A DNA stretch of 64,000 nucleotides from a virus. Shown in pieces: positions 8,303-28,191 of this stretch. The notes beneath the pieces are model-generated. The model worked only from the letters and a program-made list of their open reading frames with translations. It was not told the DNA's origin and did not search any database. The stretch's first letter is position 1. Each line of letters starts with the position of its first letter. The translations under genes and the position numbers were made by a program. The stretch is taken from IMG/VR virus record IMGVR_UViG_3300047284_000228, positions 46,787 through 110,786 of that record; one strand, written 5' to 3'.

Positions 8303-8372
8303 TTGTTTTCTCCTTTAGAGTGACGTTCTAGGTCTCGCTCAGTGGCAAAACTGCGCAATCATCTAGATACTT

Positions 8373-8378: not shown

Positions 8379-8645
8379 TCAGCGGCTGAGCATAGCCATC
8401 AGTTCCAATTTACTTACTGTAGCCAGCACTCTATTAATTTCGTCTATTTCCGATTGTGCTCGTTCTAGATGAATGGTATGATGTGTACGCCTATACTCTA
8501 CTAGATGCTTACTGTAGTTAGTGATATGATTTTCAACGATGTTTTCTATTTGTTTTACATCGTGTGTGAACATTGGAAATCGGCGGCGCCAAATATTAAA
8601 TTGTTCTCTTAGTTTAGAAAAATCGTTATGCGTTTCGATCTGCAT
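8379..8645 (-). CDS. Hypothetical helical protein (start revised to ATG 8645)
   Basis: The track start at 8666 lies inside the terminator; ATG 8645 follows TAAATA at 8651-8656. Confidence 0.65.
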   Translation of the reverse strand: MQIETHNDFSKLREQFNIWRRRFPMFTHDVKQIENIVENHITNYSKHLVEYRRTHHTIHLERAQSEIDEINRVLATVSKLELMAMLSR

Positions 8646-8650
8646 ACCGA

Positions 8651-8656
8651 TATTTA
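8651..8656 (-). promoter_or_regulatory. Late promoter motif TAAATA (probably leaderless transcript)
   Basis: 5 nt upstream of the ATG, no SD. Confidence 0.55.
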
Positions 8657-8660
8657 AGCC

Positions 8661-8688
8661 AAACAAAAAGGCTCCGAAGAGCCTTTTT
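8661..8688 (-). terminator. Rho-independent terminator after the major capsid gene
   Basis: AAAAAGGCTC-TTCG-GAGCCTTTTTGTTT: cUUCGg hairpin plus U tract. Confidence 0.9.
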
Positions 8689-8716
8689 GAAACACTTGAA
8701 AAGTGTGTACCTTTGA

Positions 8717-9889
8717 TTAGGTGAATGATGCGTTAGCGATTGTCACACGACCTAGGTAGTCAGCTGCGTTACCTAGAGATGATGCTGTGTTTGTCAACTC
8801 AACATATCCGTAACGTGTCATAAAGCTAACTACTGGCTCAAATGTGCTAGGATCTAGAACAACACCGCTGCTCATCAATGGAATGTATGGGCAGTAGAAT
8901 GCTGCTGCATCAGATTCGCTAGAACCTTTGTAGCCAACTAGAACTGTGTCATCATCAGCGTAGGTGTTGACATAGATCTTCATCGCGCTGTTCAATGTAC
9001 CAACAAACTTGGTGTTTGTAGGTGCTTCGAATGTGCCTTCTGTTGTTCTTGCGAACGCAGAAGTTGTAGCACTCTGAAGAATTGTCAATGCTGTTGGGCT
9101 AACAACTGCCCAATTACCAGCACCACGGCGTGTACGCTGAGCGATTGTGTTAGCAACGCGGTTGATAGCAACTGCTAGAGCTGCATGCTCGTCACCAACG
9201 AATGTAGCTGTACCGCTAACTGCTGCTTGGTCAAAAGCCACTGTGTTACCTGCACCAGAAGCTAGGGTAGCTAGGCTACGTAGAACTTCTTGGTCGATTT
9301 CAGCAGTGATCTCTTGTGCTAGAGCAGCCATGATTTCTGCTTCGATGTCAATGCCTTGTTGGGCTTGTGCATCTTGAGCAGCTTCAAATGTCCAGCGAGC
9401 TGACAACTTACGTGTCTTAGCTTCAACTGTTTGCTTCAAGATTTGAATGCTTAGTCTGTTACCAGCAACACCTTCTTTGGCAGCTGTCGCATCAGCTTTA
9501 CCATTAGCGTTACCAGAATAGCCTTCAGCGATCTTGAATGGGCTTAGTGCCTCTTCACCTGCACTAGCGGATCCGCCTGCAGAGCCTGTGAAAGCATCTG
9601 AATAGCGAACACGTAGAGTGTGAATTTGGCCAACTGGGCCTGTCATTGGTTGTACACCAACTAGTTCATTAGCAATGACTGTTGGCATTACACGTCTGAT
9701 CACAGGTAGGATCACACGATTTAGGGTTGCAACGTTACCGGCGGAAGTAGCACCAGCAGTGGCAGACTCTGCCAAATACTTGCGAGTATTTTCTAGAGTT
9801 GTTGCCATAACTGTACGCTTGTTACCTTGTAGGCCTTCTAATAGTGCCTCTTTAGTCTCCGACCAGCGTGACTCGAGTAGTTGTGACAT
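8717..9889 (-). CDS. gp23: Major capsid protein, T4 gp23-like
   Basis: VIRRVMPTVIANELVGVQPMTGPVGQI, KTRKLSARWTFEAAQD, FYCPYIPL and SFMTRYG are gp23 hallmarks. Confidence 0.97.
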   Translation of the reverse strand: MSQLLESRWSETKEALLEGLQGNKRTVMATTLENTRKYLAESATAGATSAGNVATLNRVILPVIRRVMPTVIANELVGVQPMTGPVGQIHTLRVRYSDAFTGSAGGSASAGEEALSPFKIAEGYSGNANGKADATAAKEGVAGNRLSIQILKQTVEAKTRKLSARWTFEAAQDAQAQQGIDIEAEIMAALAQEITAEIDQEVLRSLATLASGAGNTVAFDQAAVSGTATFVGDEHAALAVAINRVANTIAQRTRRGAGNWAVVSPTALTILQSATTSAFARTTEGTFEAPTNTKFVGTLNSAMKIYVNTYADDDTVLVGYKGSSESDAAAFYCPYIPLMSSGVVLDPSTFEPVVSFMTRYGYVELTNTASSLGNAADYLGRVTIANASFT

Positions 9890-15215: not shown

Positions 15216-18200
15216 TTAAGCAGCACTATAAAGGTCACCGCTTTGAGCTATGTTTCGTTGAACAGATAGTTGGCGTTCGTTAACTTCATTGACACGACGT
15301 GTTAAAGAAATCAAAGTATCCATCTTAGTATTTAACGCAGATAGCAGTCCCGCAGGGGTATCTTGGCTTCCAACCGTGCCTGTTCCTGGTACTGCTTTTC
15401 CTTCACGTCTAATCCTTTCCTGTTCAGCTGCCACTGTATCTGCTGGTTTATTTTGGGCTAGAGCTGTTTGTGTGGTAGTAGCAGCCGGTGTAGTTGTTGT
15501 TGCCGGTGTTCTAACTTGAGCCAATGCCTGCGATGCATCCGGAGCCACAGGAGCTCCTGCTATGCCTGCCATTTGAGTAGAAAACTTATCAACTTTGGCA
15601 GAAATTTCTGCACCGATGGCTCCTTTCTTTCTAATGTCTCCACCTGCGATCTGACTTGTAGCTAATAGATTAGCCTGCTCTTGGGTCATGTTAGCGGTGT
15701 TTATACCTAGCTTGCTGGCCATACTAGTTTGGCCTTTTTTCATATACCAAGCCGATACCTGTGCTGCAACTTCTGGATTGTTGACTAGATCTGGATTCTG
15801 TACCAATCTATCGTCACCATAGATAGCTTTTGATGCCGCAGCATAATTGTTTTTGCCTGTGAGTTGAATAAAACCTCGTCCGCGGAATTTGAAGCCATCT
15901 CCGGGCTCAGTGTTGCCCATTTGTTGGCCTAGTTTAGTACCGGCACCATACATCATTTCGCCCATCTTTGATGGATCTTTTTTGATTGCATCTAGTTCTG
16001 CATCGGTTTTTCCTGCGGCTCTCGAACCAAAAATCTTTCTGATACGATCATTAGAGGTACCGCCATAATTCATGTTCTCAGAAATACTCTTGCCGCCAGT
16101 TTCCTTCATAACGTTGCCCAATGTAGCAGCGATATATTTTGGATCTGTGATGCCTTGTTTAATTAGGGCAGCTTTGACCAATTCCATGTTTTTCTTTTGG
16201 TCTTGGTTTACAGGCGGTGGTGCAGTAGATGTGCCAGTTACGGGCGCAGTAGTTGTAGTTCCTGGCTGCTGTTGTTGTTGTGCTTGACCTTCCATTCTCT
16301 TCTTCATGCTGTCAAACATTTTTTGAGGAGAACTAAAATCAATAGGTGGTGGAGCAGCAGCGGCAGCGGCTGCATTGGCTTCGTTCGCACTAGCGGCACT
16401 TGCTCCAGCTTTAGCTTCTTGTGCTTTTTGTTCAGTTAATTTTTTACTGGCTTCAAGCTCTTTTTCTTTTTGTTCTTTGAGAGCTTTTTCTTGTTTATAT
16501 TTGTCACCAGCTTCTTTTCTACGTTGATCTCTAGCTTTTTCTTTTTCGTCTAATTCAGTCTGCTCTTCTTTGATTCGATCTCGCATGGCTTTGATAGTAT
16601 CACCGCCGCCAAAAAACTTAGCAACTTTTTCTGCTATAGCTAACCATATATCTGTATAGAACAGTGCAAAGCGTTTTAGATTATCTCCTATGGCTTCAAA
16701 TACATCACTGAACGACCATCCTGCTTCTTTGACCTTATCTGAAATCCATTGGAATCCTTTATACAGAGCCCAACCTGCTGCGACCAATGCTAGTATAGGC
16801 AGAGCTACTGCCAGTGCTGCACCCGCCATTGCTGCTAATGGAGCTAGTGAAGCTGTAACTCCTAGAGTTTGCAGTGCTTGGACAACGTTATGTGCAAATA
16901 TAGCTGCTTTTAATATAGCAAATAGAGCTATCAATGGTGTTGCTACTAGCACGATCGTTTCAAAATTACGTGCCATCCACTGGAATGCTGGTACAACATA
17001 ACTTATTGTAAAATCCGTAAGCATGGTAAATGCCTGCATCATCGTATCAAGTAGACCGCTAGTGGCTAAGAATTTTGTAAACGTGTTACTAGTCTGGGCG
17101 ATCTTTTCTTGATATTCTTTTAATTTCGCAGGATCTAAACCTTCAGCCTGTAATTGTTTTTCTTTAGCAGCTCTTTCTGCGGCAGCTTTTTGTTGTTCTG
17201 CCTGTACCTGGCCTAGAGTTTTTTGATTAGCTGCGGCATCCATAGCACCTACATAGAAACGCTTACTGGCTTCGTCCCCATATAGCGCCATGTTTTCTGC
17301 TACGCCAGATTTGGTAAAATTAGTTACTTCTTGTTTATAAGCTGCATTGATCCTTGCTGCTTGATCTGCTCCCATCTTACCCGTGGTACGGATCTGTTGG
17401 TTCAACTGCATCATATTACGGGCAGATTCTGGTAAGAAAGCCAGAGCTTTCTTACCTGCTTCAGATGTTGCTGTACCTGTAGCAATAATTTCTTTCATGC
17501 CTTCCTGATGTTCAGCAGGTATACTGTCCATTAGGTTCTGCAAGTTTCGTTGACTGTCAGCGTCTAACTTGCTCATGATGTTTCTAAACTGAGAGTCTTT
17601 TAATCTTGCTTCTCTTTCTTTTTCTAGATCTGCACGATTCTTACCGGTGAGCTTAGTAAGTGCATCTAAGTCTTGTAGGTACGCTCCGGTCTGTGCTACC
17701 AGTTGAGAATTACTCATCCCTTGTAGTTTACCTGTAGCGGCCAGCTGAGCAGAATACTTGGCGAATCCTTCATTAATCTGCTCTGTACTATAACCCATCC
17801 TAGCTAGATCATTGCCCAGCGGTGAGTTCTTGATGGTTTTTCCTAGCTGTGCTAATCTCTTAGCACCTTCTTCCGATGTACCACCTAGCAGAGCCAGCTG
17901 TTGGCCATTCCTAGCGATGATCCCAGAGAATTGTTCAAATGTTAGACCTGCTGCGGTAGCAGAATCTATCATTGTAACAATGCTGCCACCAAAGTTCGCA
18001 CCTACGCTGGCACTTTGTTGAAAGGCCTTGTAGGTTTTTTCTGCTGCGCCAGCTACCGCACCAAACACTCCTGCTAGCACACCCCCGACTATAGGGATAT
18101 TGTTCATGGTCTGTGCAGCAGCACTCATGCTGTTGCCAGTATTGGCTAATGCAGACATGAGATTTGTCATGCCTAGAGCAACACCAGATACTGCCGAACC

Positions 18201-18560
18201 TAGAGTAGCTAGGCTGCTCATTGTCTGCTGCATCTGCTTCAGTTCTTTAGCAGAAAACAGACCTTTCTTTTTCTCGTGTTCTAGAGCTTTTTTCTTTTCT
18301 TCAGTTTCGTCGCGTTGAGCTTTTTGTAACGCCTCGGATTCTTCTTTTTGTTTTTTACTGGCTTTGGCTAGTCTTTCTAATTCTTTTTCTAGCTCTTTGA
18401 GAGTCTTTGGATCCATTCCGCCGGCGCCGGCCTTGCCTTGCTTGGCCATGGCCGCAGTTTGCGCCAGCATAGCAGCCAAAATCTGCTTGAGCGTGATTTC
18501 AGTTGCTGCATTATTGAGCTGTATTGGTTGCCCGCCGAGATCGCCAGTTACGTCTGCCAT
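15216..18560 (-). CDS. Tape measure protein with C-terminal GH19 (chitinase/lysozyme-like) domain
   Basis: 1114 aa, Ala/Gln-rich helical, hydrophobic segments mid-protein; ENMNY..GDGFKFRGRGFIQLTGKNNY..NPDLV GH19 signature. Confidence 0.85.
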   Translation of the reverse strand: MADVTGDLGGQPIQLNNAATEITLKQILAAMLAQTAAMAKQGKAGAGGMDPKTLKELEKELERLAKASKKQKEESEALQKAQRDETEEKKKALEHEKKKGLFSAKELKQMQQTMSSLATLGSAVSGVALGMTNLMSALANTGNSMSAAAQTMNNIPIVGGVLAGVFGAVAGAAEKTYKAFQQSASVGANFGGSIVTMIDSATAAGLTFEQFSGIIARNGQQLALLGGTSEEGAKRLAQLGKTIKNSPLGNDLARMGYSTEQINEGFAKYSAQLAATGKLQGMSNSQLVAQTGAYLQDLDALTKLTGKNRADLEKEREARLKDSQFRNIMSKLDADSQRNLQNLMDSIPAEHQEGMKEIIATGTATSEAGKKALAFLPESARNMMQLNQQIRTTGKMGADQAARINAAYKQEVTNFTKSGVAENMALYGDEASKRFYVGAMDAAANQKTLGQVQAEQQKAAAERAAKEKQLQAEGLDPAKLKEYQEKIAQTSNTFTKFLATSGLLDTMMQAFTMLTDFTISYVVPAFQWMARNFETIVLVATPLIALFAILKAAIFAHNVVQALQTLGVTASLAPLAAMAGAALAVALPILALVAAGWALYKGFQWISDKVKEAGWSFSDVFEAIGDNLKRFALFYTDIWLAIAEKVAKFFGGGDTIKAMRDRIKEEQTELDEKEKARDQRRKEAGDKYKQEKALKEQKEKELEASKKLTEQKAQEAKAGASAASANEANAAAAAAAPPPIDFSSPQKMFDSMKKRMEGQAQQQQQPGTTTTAPVTGTSTAPPPVNQDQKKNMELVKAALIKQGITDPKYIAATLGNVMKETGGKSISENMNYGGTSNDRIRKIFGSRAAGKTDAELDAIKKDPSKMGEMMYGAGTKLGQQMGNTEPGDGFKFRGRGFIQLTGKNNYAAASKAIYGDDRLVQNPDLVNNPEVAAQVSAWYMKKGQTSMASKLGINTANMTQEQANLLATSQIAGGDIRKKGAIGAEISAKVDKFSTQMAGIAGAPVAPDASQALAQVRTPATTTTPAATTTQTALAQNKPADTVAAEQERIRREGKAVPGTGTVGSQDTPAGLLSALNTKMDTLISLTRRVNEVNERQLSVQRNIAQSGDLYSAA

Positions 18561-18628: not shown

Positions 18629-19495
18629 ATGATGGACCAATCCAATCAGCAAGTAAAGAGGGTGTCTAATCCTCTAGCAAATTATTTTAGACAACCAAAG
18701 TTATATATGAGATTACCTAGCCAGGGGAACTTTTATCCGCCTGGTTCTTTAGATGTGAGTCAAAACGAAGAATACGCTGTGTATGCCATGACAGCCAAAG
18801 ATGAGTTGATGTTTAAAACTCCCGATGCTCTCATGAACGGTCAATCTACTGTAGAAGTTATCAAGAGCTGTATTCCAGCGATCAAAGAACCTTGGCTCAT
18901 GCCCAGCATCGATCTAGATGCATGTCTTATCGCTATTAGGATCGCTACCTACGGCGAAAGCATGGAAATTAGCAGTACCTGTCCTAGCTGTAGTCATTAT
19001 AATGATTATCAACTGAATCTTCTCGGTTATCTTGAAGAAACTTATAAGTTTAGATATGCTTCTGAATTATCTGTAGGTCCGCTGACTATCCATTTAAGAC
19101 CCTACAGCTACAAAGAAATTACCAAGACTGCTATCAAAACTCTAGAACAACAAAAAATCTTCGAAGTGGTTAATGATCCTAACATGAGTGACGAAGAAAA
19201 AATTGAACGATTTGGAGAAAGTTTTGTCAAGTTAACTGAACTTACTGTTGATGTAGTAGCAGGCTGTATCACACGAATCTCCACACCGGATGGTGATGTG
19301 ACTGATCAACAGATCATTTTAGACTTTATGGAAAATGCAGACAGTACTGTGTTTAACACGGTCAATGATCATATCAGAGATATGAAAGAACTTATGGAAC
19401 TCAAAGCGCAGGATGTTGAATGCGCAGAATGCAAACATCACTGGACTGTGACTGTAAGTATGGATCAGACAAATTTTTTCGCCAAAGGGTCTTAA
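18629..19495 (+). CDS. Baseplate hub/tail assembly chaperone (T4 gp26-like, gpG-type)
   Basis: LPSQG..MTAKDEL..IDLDACLIAIRIATYG; two CxxC motifs; adjacent to the tape measure gene. Confidence 0.75.
   Translation: MMDQSNQQVKRVSNPLANYFRQPKLYMRLPSQGNFYPPGSLDVSQNEEYAVYAMTAKDELMFKTPDALMNGQSTVEVIKSCIPAIKEPWLMPSIDLDACLIAIRIATYGESMEISSTCPSCSHYNDYQLNLLGYLEETYKFRYASELSVGPLTIHLRPYSYKEITKTAIKTLEQQKIFEVVNDPNMSDEEKIERFGESFVKLTELTVDVVAGCITRISTPDGDVTDQQIILDFMENADSTVFNTVNDHIRDMKELMELKAQDVECAECKHHWTVTVSMDQTNFFAKGS
19471..19480 (+). other. Predicted -1 ribosomal frameshift slippery site (A AAT TTT TTC)
   Basis: X XXY YYZ heptamer in frame, just before the stop; the -1 frame is open to 19707. Confidence 0.7.
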
Positions 19496-19707
19496 CACTG
19501 CCTCAGTCTGAGATCCTTGAATTTGTAAAACAAATAGAAAAAGAGGCGCTGTCTATCAAAAAAGATCTTCTCAAGATCTGTTGGTATATGCGAGGTATGA
19601 GCTATTCTGATGCTATGATGCTCAGCTATGAAGAAAGAAACATCATAGGCGAGATCATCAAAGACAATCTTGAAACTACTAAGAAAACAGGTTTACCTTT
19701 CTTTTAA
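19477..19707 (+). CDS. Tail assembly chaperone C-terminal (gpT/gp51-like) segment, probably made as a frameshift fusion
   Basis: WYMRGMSYSDAMMLSYEER motif; -1 frame relative to the upstream ORF; no convincing SD/start of its own. Confidence 0.65.
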   Translation, partial: FRQRVLTLPQSEILEFVKQIEKEALSIKKDLLKICWYMRGMSYSDAMMLSYEERNIIGEIIKDNLETTKKTGLPFF

Positions 19708-20687
19708 CTTCTTCTGAACAGACTAAAGTTTTCAGTTAGACTAGCTTTGGTTCTAACAATGCTGTCAGAAGTTGGTCCCATAATTCTTGCGCGATCTGCA
19801 TCGATTTCGGCCTGACTAGGACCTGCTGGTTTCTTGGCAGGTTTTCTTTTATTTGGCTTGGGCTCTGCTGCCGCAGGTGCTGTCGTAGGTTTAGCAGCTG
19901 GTGCTGCATTTGGATTACCTGGTTTAGCAGTATTAGTTTTACTTACCGGAGCATTTGCCATCGTGTTAGGTTGTTCTGCTCCCCCTTTGGCTAACTGTCC
20001 GACCATTTGTCCCATTGCACTTGCACCAGCATCGGCCGCTGGTGCTGCTGCAGGTTTGGCTGCTGGCTTCTTAGCAGCGGGTCTTTCCATGGCTGCTTTA
20101 ACTTTTGGATCAGCCTGGAGCATGGTTACGATTTCTTTTTTCTGTTCAGGTGCCAATGACGACACTGCTTTTTGTGCCTGAGCATATGCTGTATCAGATT
20201 TAGGTTCGTCTAAAGTTGGTTCTACTCTGCCGGCAGCAGCATCAGCGCCGCCTGCGGCTGCTGTGGTTAGTTTACCAAATGTGCTCTTAGGTGCAGCTTT
20301 GGTAGCTTTTGGTGCAGATGCTGTTCCAGTATCGGCTGCAGGTGCTGCACTACCTCCCCCAGCAGCTGGTGCTGCTCCACTACTGCTACTACCACCGGTT
20401 GCGGCTGTCTTAGTAGTACCTCCGCTTTGAGCTGTATTGCCCGTATCTGCGGCTGTGTCTGCTTCATCATCGTCACCGGCTGCGGCCACGGTAGATTTGC
20501 CTCCACGATAGCCTTTCATAAAAGCTGATCCTAGTCCGGCAACACCGCCGGCCACAGATCCCACCGCCTTGGCAGCAGTTCCTGCAACCTTGCCTACACC
20601 TTGACCAATCTTGTTAAGGATAGGGCCTTCCTGTAACACTGACAGTTCTTGTTGTTGGCTTTCGTTTAATAGTTCATTGATTTTCAT
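19704..20687 (-). CDS. Ala/Pro/Gly-rich probable internal head protein
   Basis: MKINELLNE N-terminus; LNE/LQE/LTE gp21-type sites; low-complexity body. Confidence 0.55.
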   Translation of the reverse strand: MKINELLNESQQQELSVLQEGPILNKIGQGVGKVAGTAAKAVGSVAGGVAGLGSAFMKGYRGGKSTVAAAGDDDEADTAADTGNTAQSGGTTKTAATGGSSSSGAAPAAGGGSAAPAADTGTASAPKATKAAPKSTFGKLTTAAAGGADAAAGRVEPTLDEPKSDTAYAQAQKAVSSLAPEQKKEIVTMLQADPKVKAAMERPAAKKPAAKPAAAPAADAGASAMGQMVGQLAKGGAEQPNTMANAPVSKTNTAKPGNPNAAPAAKPTTAPAAAEPKPNKRKPAKKPAGPSQAEIDADRARIMGPTSDSIVRTKASLTENFSLFRRS

Positions 20688-22207
20688 TTGATGTCCTCTG
20701 CGGCCTGCGGTAACAGTCTTTCTCTGTCTGCGGCGATTTCTGCTGATTGTTTCATACCTTTGGCGCCACCTAATAGGTATTTTAACAATCTTGCCTTGCG
20801 GTCCACAGGTAATTTTGCTACCAGTTGTTTTACTGTTTCTAGATCTGCTAGAGCCTTGCCTGAGCCGGGTGCTGGTAGTTTCATTGAAGCATAGACACTC
20901 TTGATCATTTCAGTGTCAATGTTTTGTTTGGCAAGAAAATCTGCTAGCTGATCCGAATCTGTAGGACTGCCTGCTTTCTGCCAAGCAGAATTTAGTTTGT
21001 CTGCTGTGATTTTTGTGGTTAGATTTCCTGCTTTCTTAGAAACCCAGTTAGCTGCACCTTTAACCATGTCCATGGGACCTTCGTTGAGCTGTTCTGCAGC
21101 AATCCTATTGAATACCAAATATACTTGCCCTTCACTGAGAGGTCTAGATTGTAGGTAAACACTCTCTTTCTTTTCTTTGCCGCCAGCGACACCAGCAGCA
21201 GCCACAGCACCCTGAGACACTGCCTGTAGTCCTTCTTTGGCTGCTTTGATAAAATTAAGCAGCGAATCATTTTTAATAAGTTCTTGTCTACTGATTTCTA
21301 GGGCACTTGCGATTTCTTGTTTATATTCTGCGCTGTTGATGATCTTGGCTACATTTTCTAACTGCTCAAAACCTTCGTTGGCAGCGTCACCGCCCATCCT
21401 TAATAGGGTTTCTGCTGATCTCACAGCACTGGCCATTTCAGGATCTACGATAATATCGATGCCCTGTATTTCTCGTGTCCACTCCATGCCTGGAGCAGTG
21501 ATTGTTTTAGTAGCACCAAACGATACCTGTTCAAATCCTGCATTCTCAGGACCAAATGGAAGAGATTTAATCCTAATACCTTCAGCGAATTCGCCCAGCA
21601 TTTCAAATGCCTTGCCGGATAGATAACCAAATACTGCGGTCTTAACACCTTTACCAATGGCTGTGGAAAGTTTTTCGCCCTTGAGCAGTTCTACAGAACC
21701 TCTCAGTACTTGACCAGCGATAGCGCCACCGACAGGTCCACCTGCCAACGAAGCGATGGCTGTTAATACACCGACAATGGCCGCAGTTTTTCCGGGATTG
21801 GCCTTGGCCCATTCTCCCATACCTGCGACTTTCTGTGATAGATCAGGAAACTTCTTGCTGATAGTGGCCTTGAGATCTTCAAACTTTTGATCAAAAGCCT
21901 TAACTGGTGTGGTGTCCTGTAACCACTTACCGATGTTATTGATGATCGCATCTGCTTTCTTGGCAACATCAACTCCTTTGCCTAATAGAGTCCTGTTTCC
22001 TCCAGCATCAGTGGCTGCTTTTTCCACACCACCAAATATGCCCTGTATCTGTTGAGGTGTTAGACTAGCTTCGATTAAAGGCTGTAGTTCTTTAACAATC
22101 CCCTCGACAATCTTACGTTGTTGTTGATCAAGACCTTGACAAGACTCCACTAGTACTCTACGAGACTCCGTCAGATGATTTTCAACAAGGATATTATTAA
22201 TTTTCAT
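20684..22207 (-). CDS. Probable internal head/ejected protein with glycine-zipper hydrophobic segment
   Basis: MKINNILVE N-terminus; multiple L-x-E sites; AAIVGVLTAIASLAGGPVGGAIAG segment; TAAATA upstream. Confidence 0.55.
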   Translation of the reverse strand: MKINNILVENHLTESRRVLVESCQGLDQQQRKIVEGIVKELQPLIEASLTPQQIQGIFGGVEKAATDAGGNRTLLGKGVDVAKKADAIINNIGKWLQDTTPVKAFDQKFEDLKATISKKFPDLSQKVAGMGEWAKANPGKTAAIVGVLTAIASLAGGPVGGAIAGQVLRGSVELLKGEKLSTAIGKGVKTAVFGYLSGKAFEMLGEFAEGIRIKSLPFGPENAGFEQVSFGATKTITAPGMEWTREIQGIDIIVDPEMASAVRSAETLLRMGGDAANEGFEQLENVAKIINSAEYKQEIASALEISRQELIKNDSLLNFIKAAKEGLQAVSQGAVAAAGVAGGKEKKESVYLQSRPLSEGQVYLVFNRIAAEQLNEGPMDMVKGAANWVSKKAGNLTTKITADKLNSAWQKAGSPTDSDQLADFLAKQNIDTEMIKSVYASMKLPAPGSGKALADLETVKQLVAKLPVDRKARLLKYLLGGAKGMKQSAEIAADRERLLPQAAEDIK

Positions 22208-22227
22208 GGTTTGAATCCAATATTGTT

Positions 22228-22237
22228 TATTTATTTA
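22228..22237 (-). promoter_or_regulatory. Tandem late promoter motif TAAATAAATA
   Basis: Upstream of ATG 22207. Confidence 0.55.
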
Positions 22238-22239
22238 AG

Positions 22240-22688
22240 AAACGAGCTTGCGCTCGTTTTGCGTTTTCGCTTACGCTCAACGCAATTTTTTCTTTCTTAG
22301 GATTTTTTCCGCGAAGCGGAAAGTTTAGCATTATCCAGATTTTAATGGTCACACTTAGCCCAGCTAAGGGCCAAGAGTACATTATCCGAGTTCGGCAAGT
22401 CACACAGCGTTATGGCATTACAGAGGCGGTTGTCCGGTACCTCGAGCCACGTCTTTACACAACGGCGGCCTACAACAATACGCTATCACTGCTGTAGACG
22501 TGCAGGTTTTCCCTGCTCTTTTTGCCTTTTTATCCTATTCAAACAACCAAATCGCAGGGCTTACAAGCGATCTTCATCCCGAAGGGTAGTGGTTGAGCAC
22601 CTTAGCGGCAAGGTTTTCCGTCCCTGTGACCACGATTGACCAGGTATAGAGCGCACGAATTTGGGCCTGCGCTAGCCAAAAACCGCTG
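22240..22688 (-). ncRNA. Putative large structured non-coding RNA (or RNA-primed origin) downstream of the GIY-YIG gene
   Basis: Largest intergenic gap in the window; GC-richer than the flanks; more than 10 helices by eye, with G.U pairs, GNRA and UUCG loops that favour the - strand. Confidence 0.6.
22329..22405. repeat. Bipartite direct repeat CATTATCC-N11-GTCACAC x2 (51-bp period)
   Basis: Copies at 22329-22354 and 22380-22405. Confidence 0.85.
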
Positions 22689-23123
22689 TTATTTTGCCTT
22701 TTTATGTTCTTCGAGGCGCTGTCTAAGTATGTTTGATCCGCCGACTCTGACGTTTATAATGCCATTATAATAGTCATCTGTTTCTAAAACTCTGCGTTCA
22801 AACTGCTCTCTAGCCTCTAGATATGACATTTCTGCCTTGGATTTGCAAAGGTAAAGTATTTCTCTTGTGAAGTTTTCCGGACCTAATGCTTGGACGTCTG
22901 CTTGTAGCCTATCAGAAGAACCCCAGTAATCGCGCCAATCGCTTTCAACTACTGATCTTCTTTTAAGTTTTTTGCCTTTGAGAGGTGGTTTTGTGCGCTT
23001 AAACTGTGCTAGTTTTTTGCCTATGTATTTCTGTCCGGTGGTGAGATTTGTAATAAGATAAACAAAGCCAATATAGCCTTCGGGTATTTCTTCTACGGGT
23101 TGATTTTGATATGTCCACAGCAC
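22689..23123 (-). CDS. Stand-alone GIY-YIG endonuclease (Seg-like catalytic domain)
   Basis: GFVYLITN..KYIGKK, YWGSS, FTREIL, LEA.E..YYN motifs; GTG start; no C-terminal DNA-binding module. Confidence 0.85.
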   Translation of the reverse strand: MLWTYQNQPVEEIPEGYIGFVYLITNLTTGQKYIGKKLAQFKRTKPPLKGKKLKRRSVVESDWRDYWGSSDRLQADVQALGPENFTREILYLCKSKAEMSYLEAREQFERRVLETDDYYNGIINVRVGGSNILRQRLEEHKKAK

Positions 23124-23354
23124 TCATTTAGTTACCTTGGGGGGTCTGCCTAGCATGCCTTTTCTGGATTTCTTACGTTGCTTTCTTTTTTCTTGTATTT
23201 CTACTCGCCTTTTTGATGCCTCGTTACGTATTTCTGATAGCCAATACCTAGCTTTGATGCCTGCCTCATCTGAATTTCTGTACTCAAAACGATCTTGCCA
23301 TTTAAAATACTGCTGAAATGCTTCGATCATTTTATCATGACTTTCAGTGGTCAA
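23124..23354 (-). CDS. Small basic protein resembling the histone H1-like Hc1 family
   Basis: F...N..AG.KAR..LSEI....K.RR.EIQE pattern; Lys/Arg tail with GRPPK. Confidence 0.55.
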   Translation of the reverse strand: MTTESHDKMIEAFQQYFKWQDRFEYRNSDEAGIKARYWLSEIRNEASKRRVEIQEKRKQRKKSRKGMLGRPPKVTK

Positions 23355-25129
23355 TCTAATATCTCCACATCGTTACTGTAACTGGTAAATCCGTTTTCTT
23401 TGATGACCTTTAATACATGATTTACTCGATTTGTCAGGTCGTCTCGATGGCTGATCAAGAAAACATTCTTATCACGTTCTCTAGTCATCCTCTTGAGTAC
23501 AGCGATACTTGATTCGACACCACTGGCGTCCATGCCCGAGTCTACTAGTTCGTCGATAAACAGTAGATTGATGCTGGTATATAAATTTTCCCATACATCT
23601 CTAAATGCCCAGCTTAGACTTAGGATTAATCTATTACGTTCACCTCGACTCAGATTATCGAAATCTAGGTCTTGTCCTAGTTGTGTAATGGTCACAGTTA
23701 GATCATTCTGGAATTCTACGATATGGGGTAGTCCGATCTTGTCTAGATAATAGGTTAGACGCTGATTTAAAAATGCTAGATTCTGGTCAATGATGCGCTT
23801 ACGGACAAAACTATCTTTGTTGGTCAACAATTTATGCAGGAATTCTTGATGATCTTTAACTCTAGTCAATTCGTTGACAGAATTCCAGTCGATTTCTTGT
23901 ACGGCAGTTTTGCGTAGCTCGTCGATCTGTTCACCGTAGGGATTAGATTCTGCTTCTTTGATACTAAGGTCTCTTTCTAGACTTTCTAGAGTGTTCTTAT
24001 GATTCAGTGCTTCCTCTAGGCTGTTATAAATCACAGTAGGACATGCACCGAGATCTCCCAGCAGTCCGAGAGCTTCGTTGAGTGTAGCTAGTTCTGTTTC
24101 ATATTCTTTGATCAAAGCTAGACTATCTTCGACTTGTTTGGATTTAGCAGTGACCATATCTTCATGTTTATGATCGTGTATGTCCTGACCGCAGGCATGG
24201 CACTTATGTTCAGCTAATAAGACCAGTTCTTTTTCTAGCTTTTCTAGCATACGCTGTTCTTTGTCCAATGTCGATGTCTGTTTAGCGATCAATGCAGTAA
24301 GACTGTCTTTCTCTTTTTTGTTTTTTGACCAATCCGAGAGATTTTTTTGATCTAGTATTTCTTGATCGATGTCTATGTTACTGAGACGGTCTATGCTTTT
24401 TCTTAGATTTTCAAGACTTGACTCTTTTTGATCTTCCCAGATCTTCTGCTTTCTCTCTAGAGCTTCGATGCTTTGTTGTATACGATCGTTGGATGCCTTT
24501 ACAGTTTCAATCCTTGTGTTTTCGGTTGAGATAGCATCTTTGGTATGTTTGATCTGTTCTTTGAGGTTTTCTGCTTTTTCACTGAGCTGTGTGATTCCTA
24601 ATAGCTGCTCAATGATAGATCTTTGATCCGCAGCCTTCATACTAAGGAACGGTTCGGTATAAGTGTTGAGAGCAACTAAATGTTTGAACATCTCGTGGCT
24701 CATAGAAAACACTTCTTCGATGGACTTCTGTGTTTCTCTGCTGTCTCCCTGCGACTCGTCTAGGTCTTTAAGTTCCTGTTCTTCTCCGTTGATACTAAAT
24801 TTTAAAAGATTAGGTTTGCGTCCACGTTCGATGTGATACTCAACTCCGTCTTTTTCAAAGGTCACAGTGACCAACATACCTTTGCTGTTGATCTTATTGA
24901 TAAGATTATCGCGCTTGATGTTGGTTAGGGCTTGACCGTAGATAGCATAGCTCAGTCCGTTGATGATTGTAGTTTTGCCTGTTCCGTTGCGGGCGCCAGA
25001 GTCATCACCTCCTAGATCTAAATTTTCACCTAGGACCAAGGTCAACTGCCCACGGTCAAAGTCGATAGCCTGGGTTTGATTACCCACGCTCATGAAATTT
25101 CTTACAGTTAGATTCTTTATCTTGATCAT
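23351..25129 (-). CDS. gp46: Recombination endonuclease ATPase subunit (gp46/Rad50/SbcC)
   Basis: Walker A GARNGTGKTT, coiled coil with CHAC zinc hook, LSRGE signature, LFIDE Walker B, ISH motif. Confidence 0.95.
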   Translation of the reverse strand: MIKIKNLTVRNFMSVGNQTQAIDFDRGQLTLVLGENLDLGGDDSGARNGTGKTTIINGLSYAIYGQALTNIKRDNLINKINSKGMLVTVTFEKDGVEYHIERGRKPNLLKFSINGEEQELKDLDESQGDSRETQKSIEEVFSMSHEMFKHLVALNTYTEPFLSMKAADQRSIIEQLLGITQLSEKAENLKEQIKHTKDAISTENTRIETVKASNDRIQQSIEALERKQKIWEDQKESSLENLRKSIDRLSNIDIDQEILDQKNLSDWSKNKKEKDSLTALIAKQTSTLDKEQRMLEKLEKELVLLAEHKCHACGQDIHDHKHEDMVTAKSKQVEDSLALIKEYETELATLNEALGLLGDLGACPTVIYNSLEEALNHKNTLESLERDLSIKEAESNPYGEQIDELRKTAVQEIDWNSVNELTRVKDHQEFLHKLLTNKDSFVRKRIIDQNLAFLNQRLTYYLDKIGLPHIVEFQNDLTVTITQLGQDLDFDNLSRGERNRLILSLSWAFRDVWENLYTSINLLFIDELVDSGMDASGVESSIAVLKRMTRERDKNVFLISHRDDLTNRVNHVLKVIKENGFTSYSNDVEILD

Positions 25130-26136
25130 AATTCTTTGTAAATGTCTACTAATAGACCCTTGTCATAGGTATCGCTTTCGATAGCATTGATCTGATTCAG
25201 AACGATCGTGTCTACTGATTCAAATTGAATATCTATCGCTACCTGTGAAGTTTCAATTTCTACTTTTTCTGGAATCAACATCAATTCTCGCAGATTATAC
25301 TGCGGAATAAACTGCTCTTTGATGAAATTTGCTTCTTCGAAAGTGATAGGCAGATCTATGGTCACCCGACAGTGCATTTTTTCTTTGAGTAACTCGTCTG
25401 GGCGATCGATGATCTGGCTTAACTTGTATATTCTATAAACAGGCTGACCGGGCCAAGTTCGATACTCTGGCACACCACCCCATTCTAAGATCATCATGCC
25501 ACGCTCGTCGTCACCTGCGTCTGCATAATTGTGCGGAAATGCATTGCCTATATAGACGATATTAGCAGCCTGTTGTCGTTTGTGAAAGTGCCCTGTAAAC
25601 ACATAGTCTTGATTGACAAAGTGAGAACGTTGAATAGTACCGTGATCGGGCATCTGTACCATGGCATTCATGTAAAAGCTAGGTAATTCTAGATGTCCAA
25701 AGATATATCGACTTTTAATGTTAGGAATATCTTTCCATTCGTCGGCTACTAGCCAGGGCATGATAGTGACATTGCCCTGAGTAAGTGTATCTTTGATGGG
25801 AACGATGTTAGGAAACAGCCGCATAAACTCGATAGAGTTAATTTCACGTTTGTCCTTATAGAACAAGTCGTGGTTTCCTAGAATAAAATACACTTTCTCA
25901 AAATTTTGACTTAGTCTTTCTAAGTTTGACACAGTATAGTTCATAGTACTCACGTCAGTGGTACTGCGATTGTGATGCCAATCACCTAAGAAGATACAGG
26001 TTTCTGCGCCTTCTGCTCGAGCAGTTTCGCAAAACCATTTTACAAACTCTTCACAATCGATATTGTGAGTACGACTACCTGATTTCAACCCAAAGTGTAT
26101 GTCAGTAAAACAGGCTACTTTTTTGAAAAGATTCAT
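25126..26136 (-). CDS. gp47: Recombination nuclease subunit (gp47/Mre11/SbcD)
   Basis: Metallophosphoesterase motifs DIH, GDWHH, GNHD, GHLE, GHFH. Confidence 0.95.
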   Translation of the reverse strand: MNLFKKVACFTDIHFGLKSGSRTHNIDCEEFVKWFCETARAEGAETCIFLGDWHHNRSTTDVSTMNYTVSNLERLSQNFEKVYFILGNHDLFYKDKREINSIEFMRLFPNIVPIKDTLTQGNVTIMPWLVADEWKDIPNIKSRYIFGHLELPSFYMNAMVQMPDHGTIQRSHFVNQDYVFTGHFHKRQQAANIVYIGNAFPHNYADAGDDERGMMILEWGGVPEYRTWPGQPVYRIYKLSQIIDRPDELLKEKMHCRVTIDLPITFEEANFIKEQFIPQYNLRELMLIPEKVEIETSQVAIDIQFESVDTIVLNQINAIESDTYDKGLLVDIYKEL

Positions 26137-26141
26137 AATAT

Positions 26142-26170
26142 ATTATAACACTATTAATTGACTATATCAA
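26142..26170 (-). promoter_or_regulatory. Sigma70-type promoter TTGATA-N17-TATAAT with extended -10 (TG)
   Basis: -35 at 26170-26165 and -10 at 26147-26142; ATG lies 5 nt after the -10 box. Confidence 0.75.
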
Positions 26171-27006
26171 TCCCAATCACTACCATCTACAGGAGCGGTA
26201 TTCACAGCACCTGCTCCACTGCCCGAGTTTTGTCTGGTCCAACTTGGGTTCATACCATTCATTTCAAGAATGTCGTCTCGAATGTTTTGGTTGCGTTTTT
26301 CGATGTTGATAATTCGCACGAATGAATTAGTAACAGCAGCGGTATAATAAGCAAAAGGATTATCGGATTTAGATTCATCGAACTGTAAGCCTATCTGAGT
26401 TAACTGTAGAATAGCCTGTCCACGCATTTCGTCGTTGTAGGTGTAGCCTCGAACGTTGCCTCTAGTAGCATATCGTTCGCAGAGTTTTAGGAACATACGA
26501 GCTAGATTGTTGGTCATCTGACCGTGTTCTTTGTTAAACGATCCTGTGTTTAGATCTCCCTTCCAGTGGCTCTTACCTACACAGATTAGGTTATCGTTAT
26601 CATCAAACTTCCAGTGTTGGAAAGGAGGAAAGTTTACTTTATCGTGGCTGTCTGCGGTATTCTTAAGAGTTTTCTTACGACCAGGAGCCAGCGGAATATG
26701 TTCGAATGTCATGATTCTAAACACTAGATCGTGTTTGGAAATTTTCTTATAGTCTATTTCGTGTTCCTTGGCTGATGATTTTTTGCCGGTTTTTTGAGCC
26801 GCTTCGTGTGCCTGCTTACTAAGTTTAGCTGCTTTATTTCTTTTAGCTTCGGCTATGGTTCTAATATTGATCTTGGCTAGATTAGGAAGAATAATATCGT
26901 AATCAGCGTAGATCGGATCCGTAAAGGTACAGAAGGTATTTTTGCTTAGATGTATTTCTCTTAGTAAATCTTTGTTAGTTAGGTATTTTATTTTTTGTTC
27001 TGTCAT
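26167..27006 (-). CDS. gp55: Late-transcription sigma factor, gp55-like (start revised to ATG 27006)
   Basis: YLTNKDLL..I N-terminus; RGYTYNDEM, FDESKSDNPFAYYT..NSFVRII..EKR motifs; adjacent to gp47/gp46 as in T4-like phages. Confidence 0.85.
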   Translation of the reverse strand: MTEQKIKYLTNKDLLREIHLSKNTFCTFTDPIYADYDIILPNLAKINIRTIAEAKRNKAAKLSKQAHEAAQKTGKKSSAKEHEIDYKKISKHDLVFRIMTFEHIPLAPGRKKTLKNTADSHDKVNFPPFQHWKFDDNDNLICVGKSHWKGDLNTGSFNKEHGQMTNNLARMFLKLCERYATRGNVRGYTYNDEMRGQAILQLTQIGLQFDESKSDNPFAYYTAAVTNSFVRIINIEKRNQNIRDDILEMNGMNPSWTRQNSGSGAGAVNTAPVDGSDWD

Positions 27007-27055
27007 ATACTCAGTATTCTCCAATAGTTAATATAGTAGCACATTTTGTCAAGAA

Positions 27056-27061
27056 TAAATA
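27056..27061 (+). promoter_or_regulatory. Late promoter motif TAAATA for the baseplate operon
   Basis: In the divergent intergenic region upstream of 27088. Confidence 0.6.
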
Positions 27062-27087
27062 GTGTAAACTAGGAAAATTTTGTCAAA

Positions 27088-28191
27088 ATGGCGTTATCAA
27101 TCAATCCTCTGGCTAAATTAGTCAACAGCGTTTCGTCGCAAGTAGGAGCAGCAGCACAGTCTGCGCAGTCATCTCTGGCAGCAGCAGATACTTCGGCTCT
27201 TAAAGCCAACGTAGATGCCACTGTGGGAAGACTCTCGGGCGAAATCGGCAGCGGACTCAACGGAGCCACCGCAGCCGCTAATACTATGATGGGCAATGCT
27301 GCATCAGCATTAAAGGGCGTAGGAAGTCCAATACAGAGCCTAGCATCAAACGCCACAGGGGGAAGTAGTGCTTTGGGATCACTAGGCGGGGTTGCCGGAG
27401 CGGTCAGCAATGCTGGAGCTGCTATAGGTGCTAGTTTGAACAAATTAGGTTTGGCCAGTGGTGGTTTAGGTGGCGGCCTAGCTCAACTTGCCACAGGCAT
27501 ATCTTCTGCGGCTGGAATGATAAACAATCTTTTAAGTATGGCTAGAGGAAAAAACCTACCTAGTGGTGCAGAATTATTTAATCAGCAAGGTGCGTTTGTC
27601 GAAGTAAAACCGGGCACAGCCGATGACTGGAGAGTAAAACTCAATTGTAATTTTGGTTTGTTCGGCACAGCCTTTTCAAGACTGTCGGCGACCAACGGTT
27701 TTGTTTGGCCTTATCTCCCTACCATCACCGTTGCCAGTAAAGCCAATTATACCCAGATAGATCCTATACATAATCTACAACCTTTCTATGCATATAAGAA
27801 CAGTCAGATAGATGACATACAGATCAGCGGAGAGTTTTCAGTTGAAACAGAGCTAGATGCTCAGTACTGGATACAGGGCACCACCTTTTTAAGAACAGCT
27901 ACCAAGATGTTTTTTGGTCAAGGACCTAATGTAGGAAATCCTCCGATCATTTGTAATCTCACGGGCTATGGCGCTAGAGTCTTTAATTCAGTTCCGGTTA
28001 TCATAAAAAGTTTTAGCGTAGATTTCAAAGATGATGTGAATTATATCAAATGTTCTCTAGACGGTGCTAACACCTGGGTGCCGATCATGAGCACGATCTC
28101 TGTTACTGTTGCGCCTATCTATAACAGAACAAAGTTGCGTAGATTCTCTCTGAATGATTATGCTGCTGGAAAAACCGTAGGATATCTATAA
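27088..28191 (+). CDS. Baseplate/tail-tube initiator protein (gp48/gp54-like) with Gly/Ala-rich N-terminal extension
   Basis: WPYLPTI..Y..YKNS..IQISGEF..GNPP.IC.L.GYG..VPVIIKSF tube-like fold; first gene of the baseplate operon. Confidence 0.6.
   Translation: MALSINPLAKLVNSVSSQVGAAAQSAQSSLAAADTSALKANVDATVGRLSGEIGSGLNGATAAANTMMGNAASALKGVGSPIQSLASNATGGSSALGSLGGVAGAVSNAGAAIGASLNKLGLASGGLGGGLAQLATGISSAAGMINNLLSMARGKNLPSGAELFNQQGAFVEVKPGTADDWRVKLNCNFGLFGTAFSRLSATNGFVWPYLPTITVASKANYTQIDPIHNLQPFYAYKNSQIDDIQISGEFSVETELDAQYWIQGTTFLRTATKMFFGQGPNVGNPPIICNLTGYGARVFNSVPVIIKSFSVDFKDDVNYIKCSLDGANTWVPIMSTISVTVAPIYNRTKLRRFSLNDYAAGKTVGYL

What the first reader, a model, noticed from the sequence alone, without database searches (positions are those of the whole stretch)
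22240..23354. Top candidate system: minimal GIY-YIG nuclease + ~450-nt structured RNA + Hc1-like protein at the end of an Mre11/Rad50 operon
Seen: gp47, gp46, the 76-aa basic gene and the 144-aa GIY-YIG gene abut or overlap and follow one sigma70 promoter. Right after the nuclease stop lies the largest non-coding stretch in 64 kb. On the - strand it folds by eye into many helices: AGCGCA/UGCGCU; CCUG-GUCA/UGGU-CAGG; ACCUU/AAGGU; a junction closed by CAACCA/UGGUUG (22595-22590 with 22549-22544) holding a cUUCGg hairpin and AUCGC/GCGAU; GCAGG-GAAAA-CCUGC; a 13-bp stem with four G.U pairs (22499-22468) whose loop AUAGCG can pseudoknot with CGCUGU near 22409-22404; GUGGC/GCCAU enclosing GAGG..CGG-ACAA-CCG-CCUC; and CUUGGCCC/GGGCUAAG. 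The G.U pairs work only on the - strand, which points to RNA co-oriented with the operon. Known: GIY-YIG homing enzymes normally need an appended DNA-binding domain, which is absent here, and compact nucleases with adjacent structured RNAs (IscB/HEARO, TnpB) are RNA-guided. Inference, unproven: (a) a ribonucleoprotein nuclease whose cuts are processed by gp46/47, or (b) a ColE1-RNAII/T4-like R-loop primer RNA marking a replication origin.
Basis: partly seen in the sequence, partly recalled or inferred. Interest (0 to 1): 0.85.

Follow-up and report, generated by a model that had tools for sequence, protein, structure and literature searches.

The report
Twin-box phage RNA, Polynucleobacter-1 extended
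The gene-free stretch behind a small nuclease gene of this uncultured giant T4-like phage encodes a real, roughly 450-base, multiply knotted non-coding RNA. Its first third is the catalogued orphan motif Polynucleobacter-1, and the evidence says it is not the nuclease's guide; what it does is still unknown.

Summary
Window 22240-22688 (- strand) is the largest ORF-free stretch and encodes a structured RNA. On 45 relatives, 91% of cells in 102 proposed pairs are canonical and 67 pairs show compensatory changes (0/500 shuffles reach this). Three pseudoknots covary.

The first 137 nt (22541-22677) match Rfam RF01718, Polynucleobacter-1 (101 bits, cut-off 37). Its 2010 description already noted the position behind PSSM2_218-like genes, which I show are this GIY-YIG family. 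The 3' ~300 nt have no Rfam match. They carry a near-invariant knotted core and two copies of one 7-nt word, identical in 118 of 119 RNAs across at least 12 words.

The RNA-guided-nuclease reading is not supported:
- The RNA always starts at the stop codon of whichever gene comes last: GIY-YIG 83%, an unrelated PDDEXK nuclease 5%, other genes 12%.
- One relative has its own promoter.
- Both nucleases occur without the RNA in cultured phages.
- No guide-like variable window exists.

The origin/R-loop reading is untested; GC skew gives no support.

Best reading: an operon-terminal, independent RNA gene that shows its twin words to an unknown reader.

This scan has found the same RNA family many times on other DNA, with the same conclusions.

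The parts
26142..26170 (-). sigma70-type promoter-like site upstream of gp47 (TTGATA, 17 nt, TATAAT, with TG)
   Evidence: 11 of 12 matches, the best site in 21900-27300
25126..26136 (-). gp47-like Mre11/SbcD nuclease subunit
   Evidence: Metallophos 2.4e-8; phrog_100 5.8e-60
23351..25129 (-). gp46-like Rad50/SbcC ATPase subunit
   Evidence: AAA_23 and SMC_N; phrog_77 1.8e-104
23124..23354 (-). 76-aa basic protein, Hc1-like by transitive homology
   Evidence: homolog L156:9115-9300 hits Pfam Hc1 at 2e-13; pairwise E 6e-9; the family is detectable in 63 of 114 loci
22689..23123 (-). stand-alone SegE-type GIY-YIG nuclease (144 aa) with no DNA-binding domain
   Evidence: PF19835 2.4e-36 over residues 3-123; model pLDDT 89.5; best PDB fold match is the I-TevI catalytic domain (prob 0.98, TM 0.67)
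22240..22688 (-). whole structured RNA, about 449 nt, from 1 nt after the stop codon to the terminator-like hairpin
22541..22677 (-). 5' domain = Rfam RF01718, Polynucleobacter-1 RNA
   Evidence: 101.1 bits (cut-off 37), E 1e-20, model positions 1-141
22605..22686 (-). pseudoknot PK1: leader GCGG (22686-22683) pairs with the hairpin loop CCGC (22608-22605); it lies outside the Rfam model
   Evidence: own leader-loop complementarity 4.33 nt against 3.37 +/- 0.08 with shuffled partners; GCGG/CCGC, ACGG/CCGU and CGCCAA/UUGGCG variants
22468..22516 (-). hairpin Pa (22516-22502) and long variable stem Pb (22499-22468) with the conserved loop GAUAGCGU
   Evidence: helices 11 and 12; all 12 Pb pairs changed on both sides
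22404..22486 (-). pseudoknotted core: PK2 (22486-22480 with 22410-22404), PK3 (22463-22459 with 22433-22429), Pc (22450-22446 with 22416-22412), Pd (22443-22440 with 22426-22423); invariant GGUACCGG and ACCGCC
   Evidence: helices 13-16 are 91-99.6% paired, with compensatory changes
22381..22405 (-). unit 1: GUGUGAC (22405-22399), spacer, A-CUC (22391-22388), word GGAUAAU (22387-22381)
22354..22375 (-). hairpin hp1 between the two units (8 bp)
   Evidence: helix 17, 97.7% paired
22330..22354 (-). unit 2: GUGUGAC (22354-22348), spacer, A-UCU (22340-22337), the same word GGAUAAU (22336-22330)
   Evidence: words identical in 118 of 119 distinct RNAs, with at least 12 different words
22306..22322 (-). 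hairpin hp2 with the conserved CUUCG loop
   Evidence: helix 18, 96.5% paired, 5 of 6 pairs changed on both sides
22240..22283 (-). hairpin hp3 (22283-22261, GNRA-type inner loop) and terminator-like hairpin with a GCAA loop and U-rich tail (22259-22240)
   Evidence: helices 19-22; in the terminal hairpin 7 of 8 pairs changed on both sides
22228..22234 (-). near-invariant ATAAATA, resembling the T4-type late promoter core, ahead of the next ORF (20684-22207)
   Evidence: nearly invariant columns A455-A461. That it is a late promoter rests on my knowledge of the T4 TATAAATA consensus and was not tested.

Best explanation
The stretch is an RNA gene: a full-length, roughly 450-nt member of a large phage RNA family of which only the 5' third (Polynucleobacter-1, RF01718) is catalogued.

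Shown:
- It starts within 3 nt of the stop codon of the last gene of an early-type operon (sigma70 promoter, gp47, gp46, Hc1-like protein, GIY-YIG).
- It folds into about 20 helices with three pseudoknots.
- It ends in a terminator-like hairpin, after which the next gene has its own late-promoter-like box.
- Two single-stranded copies of one 7-nt word, each in the frame GUGUGAC, 6-9 nt, A-YYY, word, hairpin, are kept identical while the word itself changes between phages.

Inferred:
- It is made as the 3' end of the operon transcript, and possibly trimmed from it.
- It works on its own as a folded scaffold or decoy that offers its twin words to a bivalent or repeated trans-acting reader.
- The GIY-YIG nuclease is a neighbour, most likely a recombination or repair enzyme that belongs with gp46/47. 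It is not the RNA's partner.
For: - Rfam match.
- Covariation on A1: 91.3% canonical cells against 76.9 +/- 0.3 in shuffles; 67 pairs and 617 cells with changes on both sides against 47.5 and 205; slid controls 36-43% paired.
- Mutual-information analysis of 114 RNAs under 93% identical recovers the same helices and three pseudoknots.
- No coding signal: the longest open stretch has a median of 50 codons against 54.5 in shuffles, and indels are not in threes.
- The stop-to-core distance is constant (median about 250 nt, range 189-354) whichever gene is upstream: GIY-YIG 92, PDDEXK_15 3, others 8. RNA-first only: 53, 3 and 8.
- L173, which lacks an upstream operon partner, has TAGACA-17-TATAAT right before its RNA.
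- Nuclease homologs occur without the RNA in Melnitz, P-SSM2, Paride and SCTP-2.
- Twin words are identical in 118 of 119 RNAs, with 12 words. Parallel covariation is seen at six or more column pairs 51 nt apart.
Against: - No transcript data, so co-transcription, processing and stability are inferred.
There is no complementary site inside the RNA or in about 1 Mb of flanks. There is no association with the Hc1-like protein or with phage tRNA sets.
- A nuclease gene sits directly upstream in about 88% of RNA-first loci, and two unrelated nuclease families fill that slot. A functional link to nucleases in general is therefore not excluded.
- The scaffold/decoy mechanism is a guess from anatomy.
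Confidence: 0.6

Rival explanations
1. Homing-type nucleases parked beside a conserved RNA gene. The GIY-YIG and PDDEXK genes would be free-standing selfish endonucleases that target the conserved DNA of the RNA gene in alleles lacking them, as T4 seg and mob genes sit beside conserved genes.
For: - Two unrelated nuclease families occupy the same slot.
- In backgrounds where gp46 is only about 60% identical, the GIY-YIG protein is either about 89% or about 55% identical to the window's, which points to lateral exchange.
- The catalytic domain is I-TevI-like.
Against: - There is no DNA-binding domain: the Pfam domain fills residues 3-123 of 144.
- A nuclease gene occupies the slot in about 88% of loci, which is not a sporadic distribution.
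- No allele with the RNA directly behind gp46 or the Hc1-like gene was seen.
- Homologs are near-universal in cyanomyophages at other loci without the RNA.
- PDDEXK_15 homologs are annotated as Holliday-junction resolvases in cultured phages.
Confidence: 0.12
2. A cis-acting 3' element of the operon mRNA. The RNA would control the stability, termination or translation of the gp47-gp46-nuclease transcript and have no life of its own.
For: - The first helix begins within 3 nt of the stop codon, so a terminating ribosome must unwind it.
- The RNA always follows the last ORF and ends in a terminator-like hairpin.
Against: - About 20 helices, three pseudoknots and some 35 invariant bases are far more than 3'-end protection needs.
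- L173 has its own promoter.
- The element is kept whatever gene precedes it.
Confidence: 0.12
3. An R-loop primer RNA marking a replication origin, in the manner of ColE1 RNAII or T4 oriF/oriG.
For: - A structured transcript is followed by an A/T-rich linker and hairpins.
- It sits next to recombination and replication genes.
- One relative has an RNase H gene between the nuclease and the RNA.
- Identical direct words would let the RNA anneal to the template in two registers (inference).
Against: - The cumulative GC-skew minimum is at about 24-27 kb, where gene orientation switches, and not at the RNA.
- The G.U pairs and compensatory changes show selection on the RNA fold along its whole length, including the 3' hairpins.
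- No match was found in 50,697 phage records that would allow a link to a mapped origin.
Confidence: 0.08
4. An RNA-guided or RNA-dependent GIY-YIG ribonucleoprotein.
For: The adjacency is tight and common, and the nuclease lacks its own DNA-binding domain.
Against: - Each part occurs without the other.
- An unrelated fold replaces the nuclease with the same RNA words.
- A 97%-identical protein sits beside an RNA only 58% identical.
- There is no unpaired hypervariable window apart from a low-complexity A-rich linker.
- The words have no complementary sites in the flanks.
- Stand-alone GIY-YIG enzymes without an extra domain are known, for example T4 endonuclease II (from my own knowledge).
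Confidence: 0.03

Closest known systems
Polynucleobacter-1 RNA motif (Rfam RF01718; Weinberg et al. 2010, Genome Biol 11:R31, PMC2864571)
   Same: Window 22541-22677 matches the full model at 101 bits. It shares the same helices, the same position downstream of PSSM2_218-like (GIY-YIG) genes and a function that is still unknown.
   Different: The catalogued motif is 141 nt. Here it is only the 5' domain of a roughly 450-nt RNA. The leader pseudoknot, the knotted core, the twin words and the terminator are not in the model. About 30% of RNAs that share the core have a different 5' domain.
Large ornate phage and prophage RNAs (GOLLD RF01998, ROOL RF03087)
   Same: Several hundred nucleotides long, many helices and pseudoknots, phage-borne, function unknown.
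   Different: No Rfam match to either at E up to 10. The architecture is different. Twin identical words are not a described feature of those families, as far as I know.
OMEGA-type RNA-guided nucleases (IscB with HEARO/omega RNA; TnpB)
   Same: A compact nuclease gene directly followed by a large structured RNA.
   Different: The nuclease fold is GIY-YIG or PDDEXK, not RuvC/HNH. There is no guide segment, protein and RNA occur apart, and there are no transposon ends.
Free-standing GIY-YIG homing endonucleases of T4 (Seg proteins) and I-TevI
   Same: The catalytic domain family (PF19835 SegE_GIY-YIG; fold nearest to the I-TevI catalytic domain) and a position between conserved phage genes.
   Different: There is no linker or DNA-binding domain, the gene is nearly always present, and homologs are near-core in cyanomyophages.
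R-loop primer RNAs (ColE1 RNAII; T4 oriF/oriG transcripts)
   Same: A long folded transcript next to an A/T-rich stretch in a replication and recombination gene neighbourhood.
   Different: No sequence or Rfam relation, no skew signal at the site, and selection acts on RNA pairing right through the 3' end.

Membership tests
Rfam RF01718 Polynucleobacter-1 | Covariance-model score at or above the curated gathering score (37 bits) | tested here: met
   101.1 bits, E 1e-20, model positions 1-141, at 22541-22677 (-)
Rfam RF01718 Polynucleobacter-1 | Consensus helices kept with compensatory changes in relatives | tested here: met
   helices 2-10: 74-100% paired, most with changes on both sides
Rfam RF01718 Polynucleobacter-1 | Genomic context: downstream of GOS11034 / PSSM2_218-like genes | tested here: met
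   Supplement text. PSSM2_218 is 42% identical (E 8e-25) to the window's GIY-YIG protein. The RNA lies 3' of that gene in 44 of 50 related contigs.
RNA-guided nuclease system (OMEGA-like) | Obligate co-occurrence of nuclease and RNA | tested here: not met
   RNA with other upstream genes; nuclease homologs without the RNA
RNA-guided nuclease system (OMEGA-like) | A variable, unpaired guide segment beside a conserved scaffold | tested here: not met
   The most variable windows are a paired stem and a low-complexity A-rich linker. The twin words have only about 12 states and no complementary sites in about 1 Mb of flanks.
RNA-guided nuclease system (OMEGA-like) | RNA-dependent, programmable cleavage | not testable with these tools
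   Needs biochemistry
Free-standing GIY-YIG homing endonuclease (Seg-like) | GIY-YIG catalytic domain | tested here: met
   PF19835 2.4e-36; invariant Y22, Y33, G35, R87, E88 and N120 in 22 homologs; fold nearest to the I-TevI catalytic domain
Free-standing GIY-YIG homing endonuclease (Seg-like) | Appended DNA-binding domain | tested here: not met
   144 aa in all; only one short helix (131-143) lies beyond the catalytic domain
Free-standing GIY-YIG homing endonuclease (Seg-like) | Sporadic presence among close relatives | tested here: not met
   Present upstream of the RNA in 53 of 64 RNA-first non-redundant loci
R-loop primer / replication origin | Initiation of DNA synthesis or a persistent RNA-DNA hybrid at the site | not testable with these tools
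   Only indirect evidence: the cumulative GC-skew minimum is at 24-27 kb, not at the RNA
Intrinsic terminator at the RNA's 3' end | G+C-rich hairpin followed by a U-run | tested here: inconclusive
   An 8-bp hairpin with covariation (helix 22) and the tail UUUCUU. The consensus scan did not list it.

The most novel reading that the evidence does not exclude
The twin words are the working part of a kind of phage riboregulator not yet described. The knotted RNA would hold two identical single-stranded 7-nt words about 51 nt apart, so that one complementary strand, or two copies of one nucleic-acid reader, must match both. That would be an identity-matching device. In logic, not in membership, it is comparable to matched take-off and landing codons, recombination-site spacers or viral transcription-regulating sequences. 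It could serve, for example, as a bivalent decoy for a host RNA or as a register-setting element for the phage's own DNA or RNA synthesis.
Probability: 0.15. Interest if true: 0.8.

Novelty: new variant of a known kind. Interest (0 to 1): 0.5.

Why it matters
- Large, multiply knotted RNAs with dozens of invariant bases usually do something specific, such as catalysis, ligand binding or assembly of a machine.
- This one is common in uncultured giant (about 345 kb) T4-like phages of fresh and salt water. In this window it belongs to the early recombination operon.
- Only a third of it is in any RNA catalogue, so the Rfam model could be extended and re-seeded.
- The strict identity of two fast-changing words is a clear, testable handle on its function.
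- The report also removes a tempting but unsupported reading, that a minimal GIY-YIG enzyme is RNA-guided.

Tried and rejected
1. Other Rfam families across 22100-22800 at E up to 10: only a spurious sub-threshold lncRNA hit.
2. A coding reading of the gap: open stretches are like shuffles, and the 58-aa ORF 22227-22403 is not kept.
3. Pairing of the words with each other, with the A-YYY prefixes, with GUGUGAC or with any other part of the RNA: the complementarity map and an alignment-free search show own words no better than control words.
4. A trans target in the flanks: own-word counts equal control-word counts in about 1 Mb, and the only recurrent antisense site is a conserved gp46 codon run that does not covary. 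The words are not enriched in the window.
5. The Hc1-like basic protein as reader: no column tracks the word class (best normalised MI 0.44, no better than the linked GIY-YIG C-terminus).
6. The 'sense codon plus stop codon' reading (GGA/AGA/GCA followed by UAA/UGA), with tRNA or gene-60-like bypass as reader: no conserved frame or start, and one relative (L119) breaks the pattern. Phage tRNA sets do not track the word; a GGA-word contig carries tRNA-Arg(UCU) and tRNA-Met.
7. CsrA-type GGA sites: a third of the RNAs have AGA or GCA instead.
8. A third partial copy (CUGUAAUG at 22423-22416): it does not covary with the words.
9. sigma70 -10 or promoter reading of the words: the spacing to GUGUGAC is 11 nt, and several words lack the key T.
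10. Homologs in cultured phages: blastn of the whole RNA against 50,697 records found nothing. Paride, SCTP-2 and Melnitz have no twin-box RNA beside their nuclease homologs.
11. Origin by GC skew: the minimum is at the strand switch.
Full report
**Setting.** The window is part of a 110,786-bp IMG/VR viral contig from an uncultured T4-like phage.
- On the - strand lie a late sigma factor gp55 homolog (26167-27024), gp47 (25126-26136), gp46 (23351-25129), a 76-aa basic ORF (23124-23354) and a 144-aa ORF (22689-23123). The 144-aa ORF is a SegE-type GIY-YIG domain and nothing else (PF19835, 2.4e-36, residues 3-123).
- The ORFs overlap by 4 nt or abut. A strong sigma70-type site lies just upstream of gp47.
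- A related contig of 345 kb is rated 99% complete, so these are giant phages.
- The best cultured relative of the nuclease is in Methylophilales phage Melnitz (65% identity).

**The observation.**
- 22208-22688 is the largest stretch of the window without a sizeable ORF.
- Its - strand folds better than shuffles (z -2.4 to -2.6) and its + strand does not.
- A scan of the whole window against Rfam gives one hit: RF01718, Polynucleobacter-1 RNA, at 22541-22677 (-), 101 bits against a cut-off of 37, over the full model. Nothing in Rfam matches the remaining 300 nt or so.
- The authors of that motif wrote that most examples lie downstream of genes of family GOS11034, possibly related to PSSM2_218 of cyanophage P-SSM2, and that no purified phage carried it.
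- PSSM2_218, annotated 'NAD synthetase', is 42% identical (E 8e-25) to the window's GIY-YIG protein.

**The RNA is larger than the catalogued motif.**
- Eighty IMG/VR loci found through the nuclease show the synteny gp47, gp46, (basic ORF), GIY-YIG, RNA. 44 of 50 of their contigs carry one RF01718 copy directly 3' of the nuclease gene.
- Aligning the whole gap of 45 relatives (57-77% identical to the window) shows conservation to the end of the gap.
- I wrote a structure of 102 pairs in 22 helices and counted it on that alignment. 91.3% of cells are canonical (shuffles 76.9 +/- 0.3). 67 pairs and 617 cells have changes on both sides (shuffles 47.5 and 205). Partners slid by 1-3 columns give 36-43% paired. 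In 0 of 500 shuffles was any measure reached.
- A second, independent set came from scanning IMG/VR for the invariant core word pair. It gave 90 RNA-bearing loci of 120 hits.
- Mutual information on 114 RNAs under 93% identical recovers the same helices.
- Three pseudoknots covary:
  - The leader right after the stop codon pairs with a hairpin loop of the 5' domain. The pairs seen are GCGG/CCGC, ACGG/CCGU and CGCCAA/UUGGCG.
- GUUGU (22463-22459) pairs with ACAAC (22433-22429).
- The RNA ends in a hairpin with a GCAA loop and a U-rich tail (22259-22240). It is followed by a near-invariant ATAAATA (22234-22228) ahead of the next ORF. I read that box as a late-promoter-like element from knowledge of T4; it was not tested.

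**Twin words.**
- Mutual information also shows columns 51 nt apart that change in parallel, not in complement.
- Each of two units reads GUGUGAC, 6-9 nt, A, then CUC (unit 1) or UCU (unit 2), then a 7-nt word, then a hairpin.
- In the window the word is GGAUAAU, at 22387-22381 and 22336-22330.
- Across loci there are at least 12 words, including AGAUAAU, GCAUAAU, GGAUGAU and AGAUGAA. The two copies are identical in 118 of 119 distinct RNAs, and the one exception differs at the last base.
- I looked for a reader and found none:
  - no complementary stretch inside the RNA;
  - no enrichment of the word or its complement in about 1 Mb of flanks or in the window;
  - no tracking by the Hc1-like protein;
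  - no tracking by phage tRNA sets, despite the suggestive 'codon plus UAA/UGA' look of the words;
  - no covariation in a third partial copy.

**Is it a nuclease-RNA system?** The adjacency is real, but it is not specific to the nuclease.
- In RNA-first, non-redundant loci with enough flank, the ORF that ends just before the RNA is GIY-YIG in 53. In 3 it is a PF24608 PDDEXK_15 nuclease (E 1e-26 to 1e-30), an unrelated fold. In 8 it is something else, such as an SGNH-like hydrolase, an amidoligase-like protein or MazG-like.
- In every class the distance from the stop codon to the invariant core is about 250 nt. The RNA therefore begins at the stop codon of whichever gene is last.
- L173, whose upstream gene is unrelated, has a good sigma70 promoter in the extra 100 nt before the RNA.
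- Conversely, nuclease homologs occur without the RNA. These are the GIY-YIG homologs of Melnitz and P-SSM2 and the PDDEXK homologs of Pseudomonas phage Paride (51% identity, annotated as a Holliday-junction resolvase) and Salicola phage SCTP-2.
- Protein and RNA are mosaic: L002 has a 97%-identical nuclease and a 58%-identical RNA with another 5' domain type.
- The core itself occurs with or without the Polynucleobacter-1 domain. RF01718 is found in 26 of 26 loci of one class and in 1 of 24 of the other.
- No unpaired hypervariable window exists that could serve as a guide.
- The nuclease model (pLDDT 89.5) is closest to the I-TevI catalytic domain and has only one extra helix. Stand-alone GIY-YIG enzymes are known (T4 endonuclease II, from my own knowledge), so the missing DNA-binding domain does not call for an RNA guide.

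**Origin reading.** The cumulative GC-skew minimum lies at about 24-27 kb, where gene orientation flips, and not at the RNA. This is weak evidence, and the idea stays open at low odds.

**Verdict.**
- The structure claim is confirmed and the 5' third is a known orphan family.
- The rest is an uncatalogued extension with a striking, unexplained twin-word feature.
- The proposed ribonucleoprotein nuclease is not supported.
- My best reading is an operon-terminal but functionally independent RNA that presents its twin words to an unknown, probably nucleic-acid, reader. The nuclease is a recombination-type neighbour.
- Earlier notes of this scan reached the same picture on many other genomes. I re-derived the main points here from this window's own data.

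Noticed in passing
L128:3963-4484, L197:8819-9385, L156:9348-9854: In some relatives a PF24608 PDDEXK_15 nuclease fills the slot directly upstream of the RNA in place of GIY-YIG. Its homologs in cultured phages are annotated as Holliday-junction resolvases. This looks like non-orthologous displacement of the last operon gene.
   Followed up: yes
L173 (RNA about 8400-8870; promoter-like site just after the 649-aa ORF ending at 8303): A divergent RNA copy follows an amidoligase-like gene and has its own TAGACA-17-TATAAT site, which suggests it can be an independent transcription unit.
   Followed up: partly
L020-L022, L030, L041-L043 and others, compared with L084-L200: In backgrounds where gp46/gp47 are only 55-62% identical to the window's, the GIY-YIG protein is either about 89% or about 55% identical. 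The nuclease gene seems to have moved between diverged phages.
   Followed up: partly
L109, just after the MazG-like ORF (about 1900-1950 in RNA orientation): Three tandem copies of an 11-nt unit (GGCACACTTAG-like) precede a divergent, partial twin-box RNA.
   Followed up: no
L107:749-1168 (-): An RNase H-like gene lies between the PDDEXK nuclease gene and the RNA, with about 390 nt of unassigned sequence before the RNA.
   Followed up: no
window 15216-18560 (-): A 1114-aa protein with a C-terminal chitinase-class-I / endolysin-like region (Glyco_hydro_19 2e-6; phrog_181 9e-29). It lies next to a baseplate-hub gene (18629-19495, +) and is probably a tail-associated lysin.
   Followed up: no
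window 20684-22207 and 19704-20687 (-): The two ORFs downstream of the RNA (507 and 327 aa) have no Pfam or PHROG match. The downstream neighbour differs between related loci.
   Followed up: partly
window 24000-27000: The cumulative GC skew has its minimum here, where gene orientation switches from - to + near 27 kb.
   Followed up: partly
G034 (contig of L067), about 265.9-272.3 kb: A cluster of about 30 tRNA genes in a related 282-kb contig. The window's own 110-kb contig has none.
   Followed up: partly
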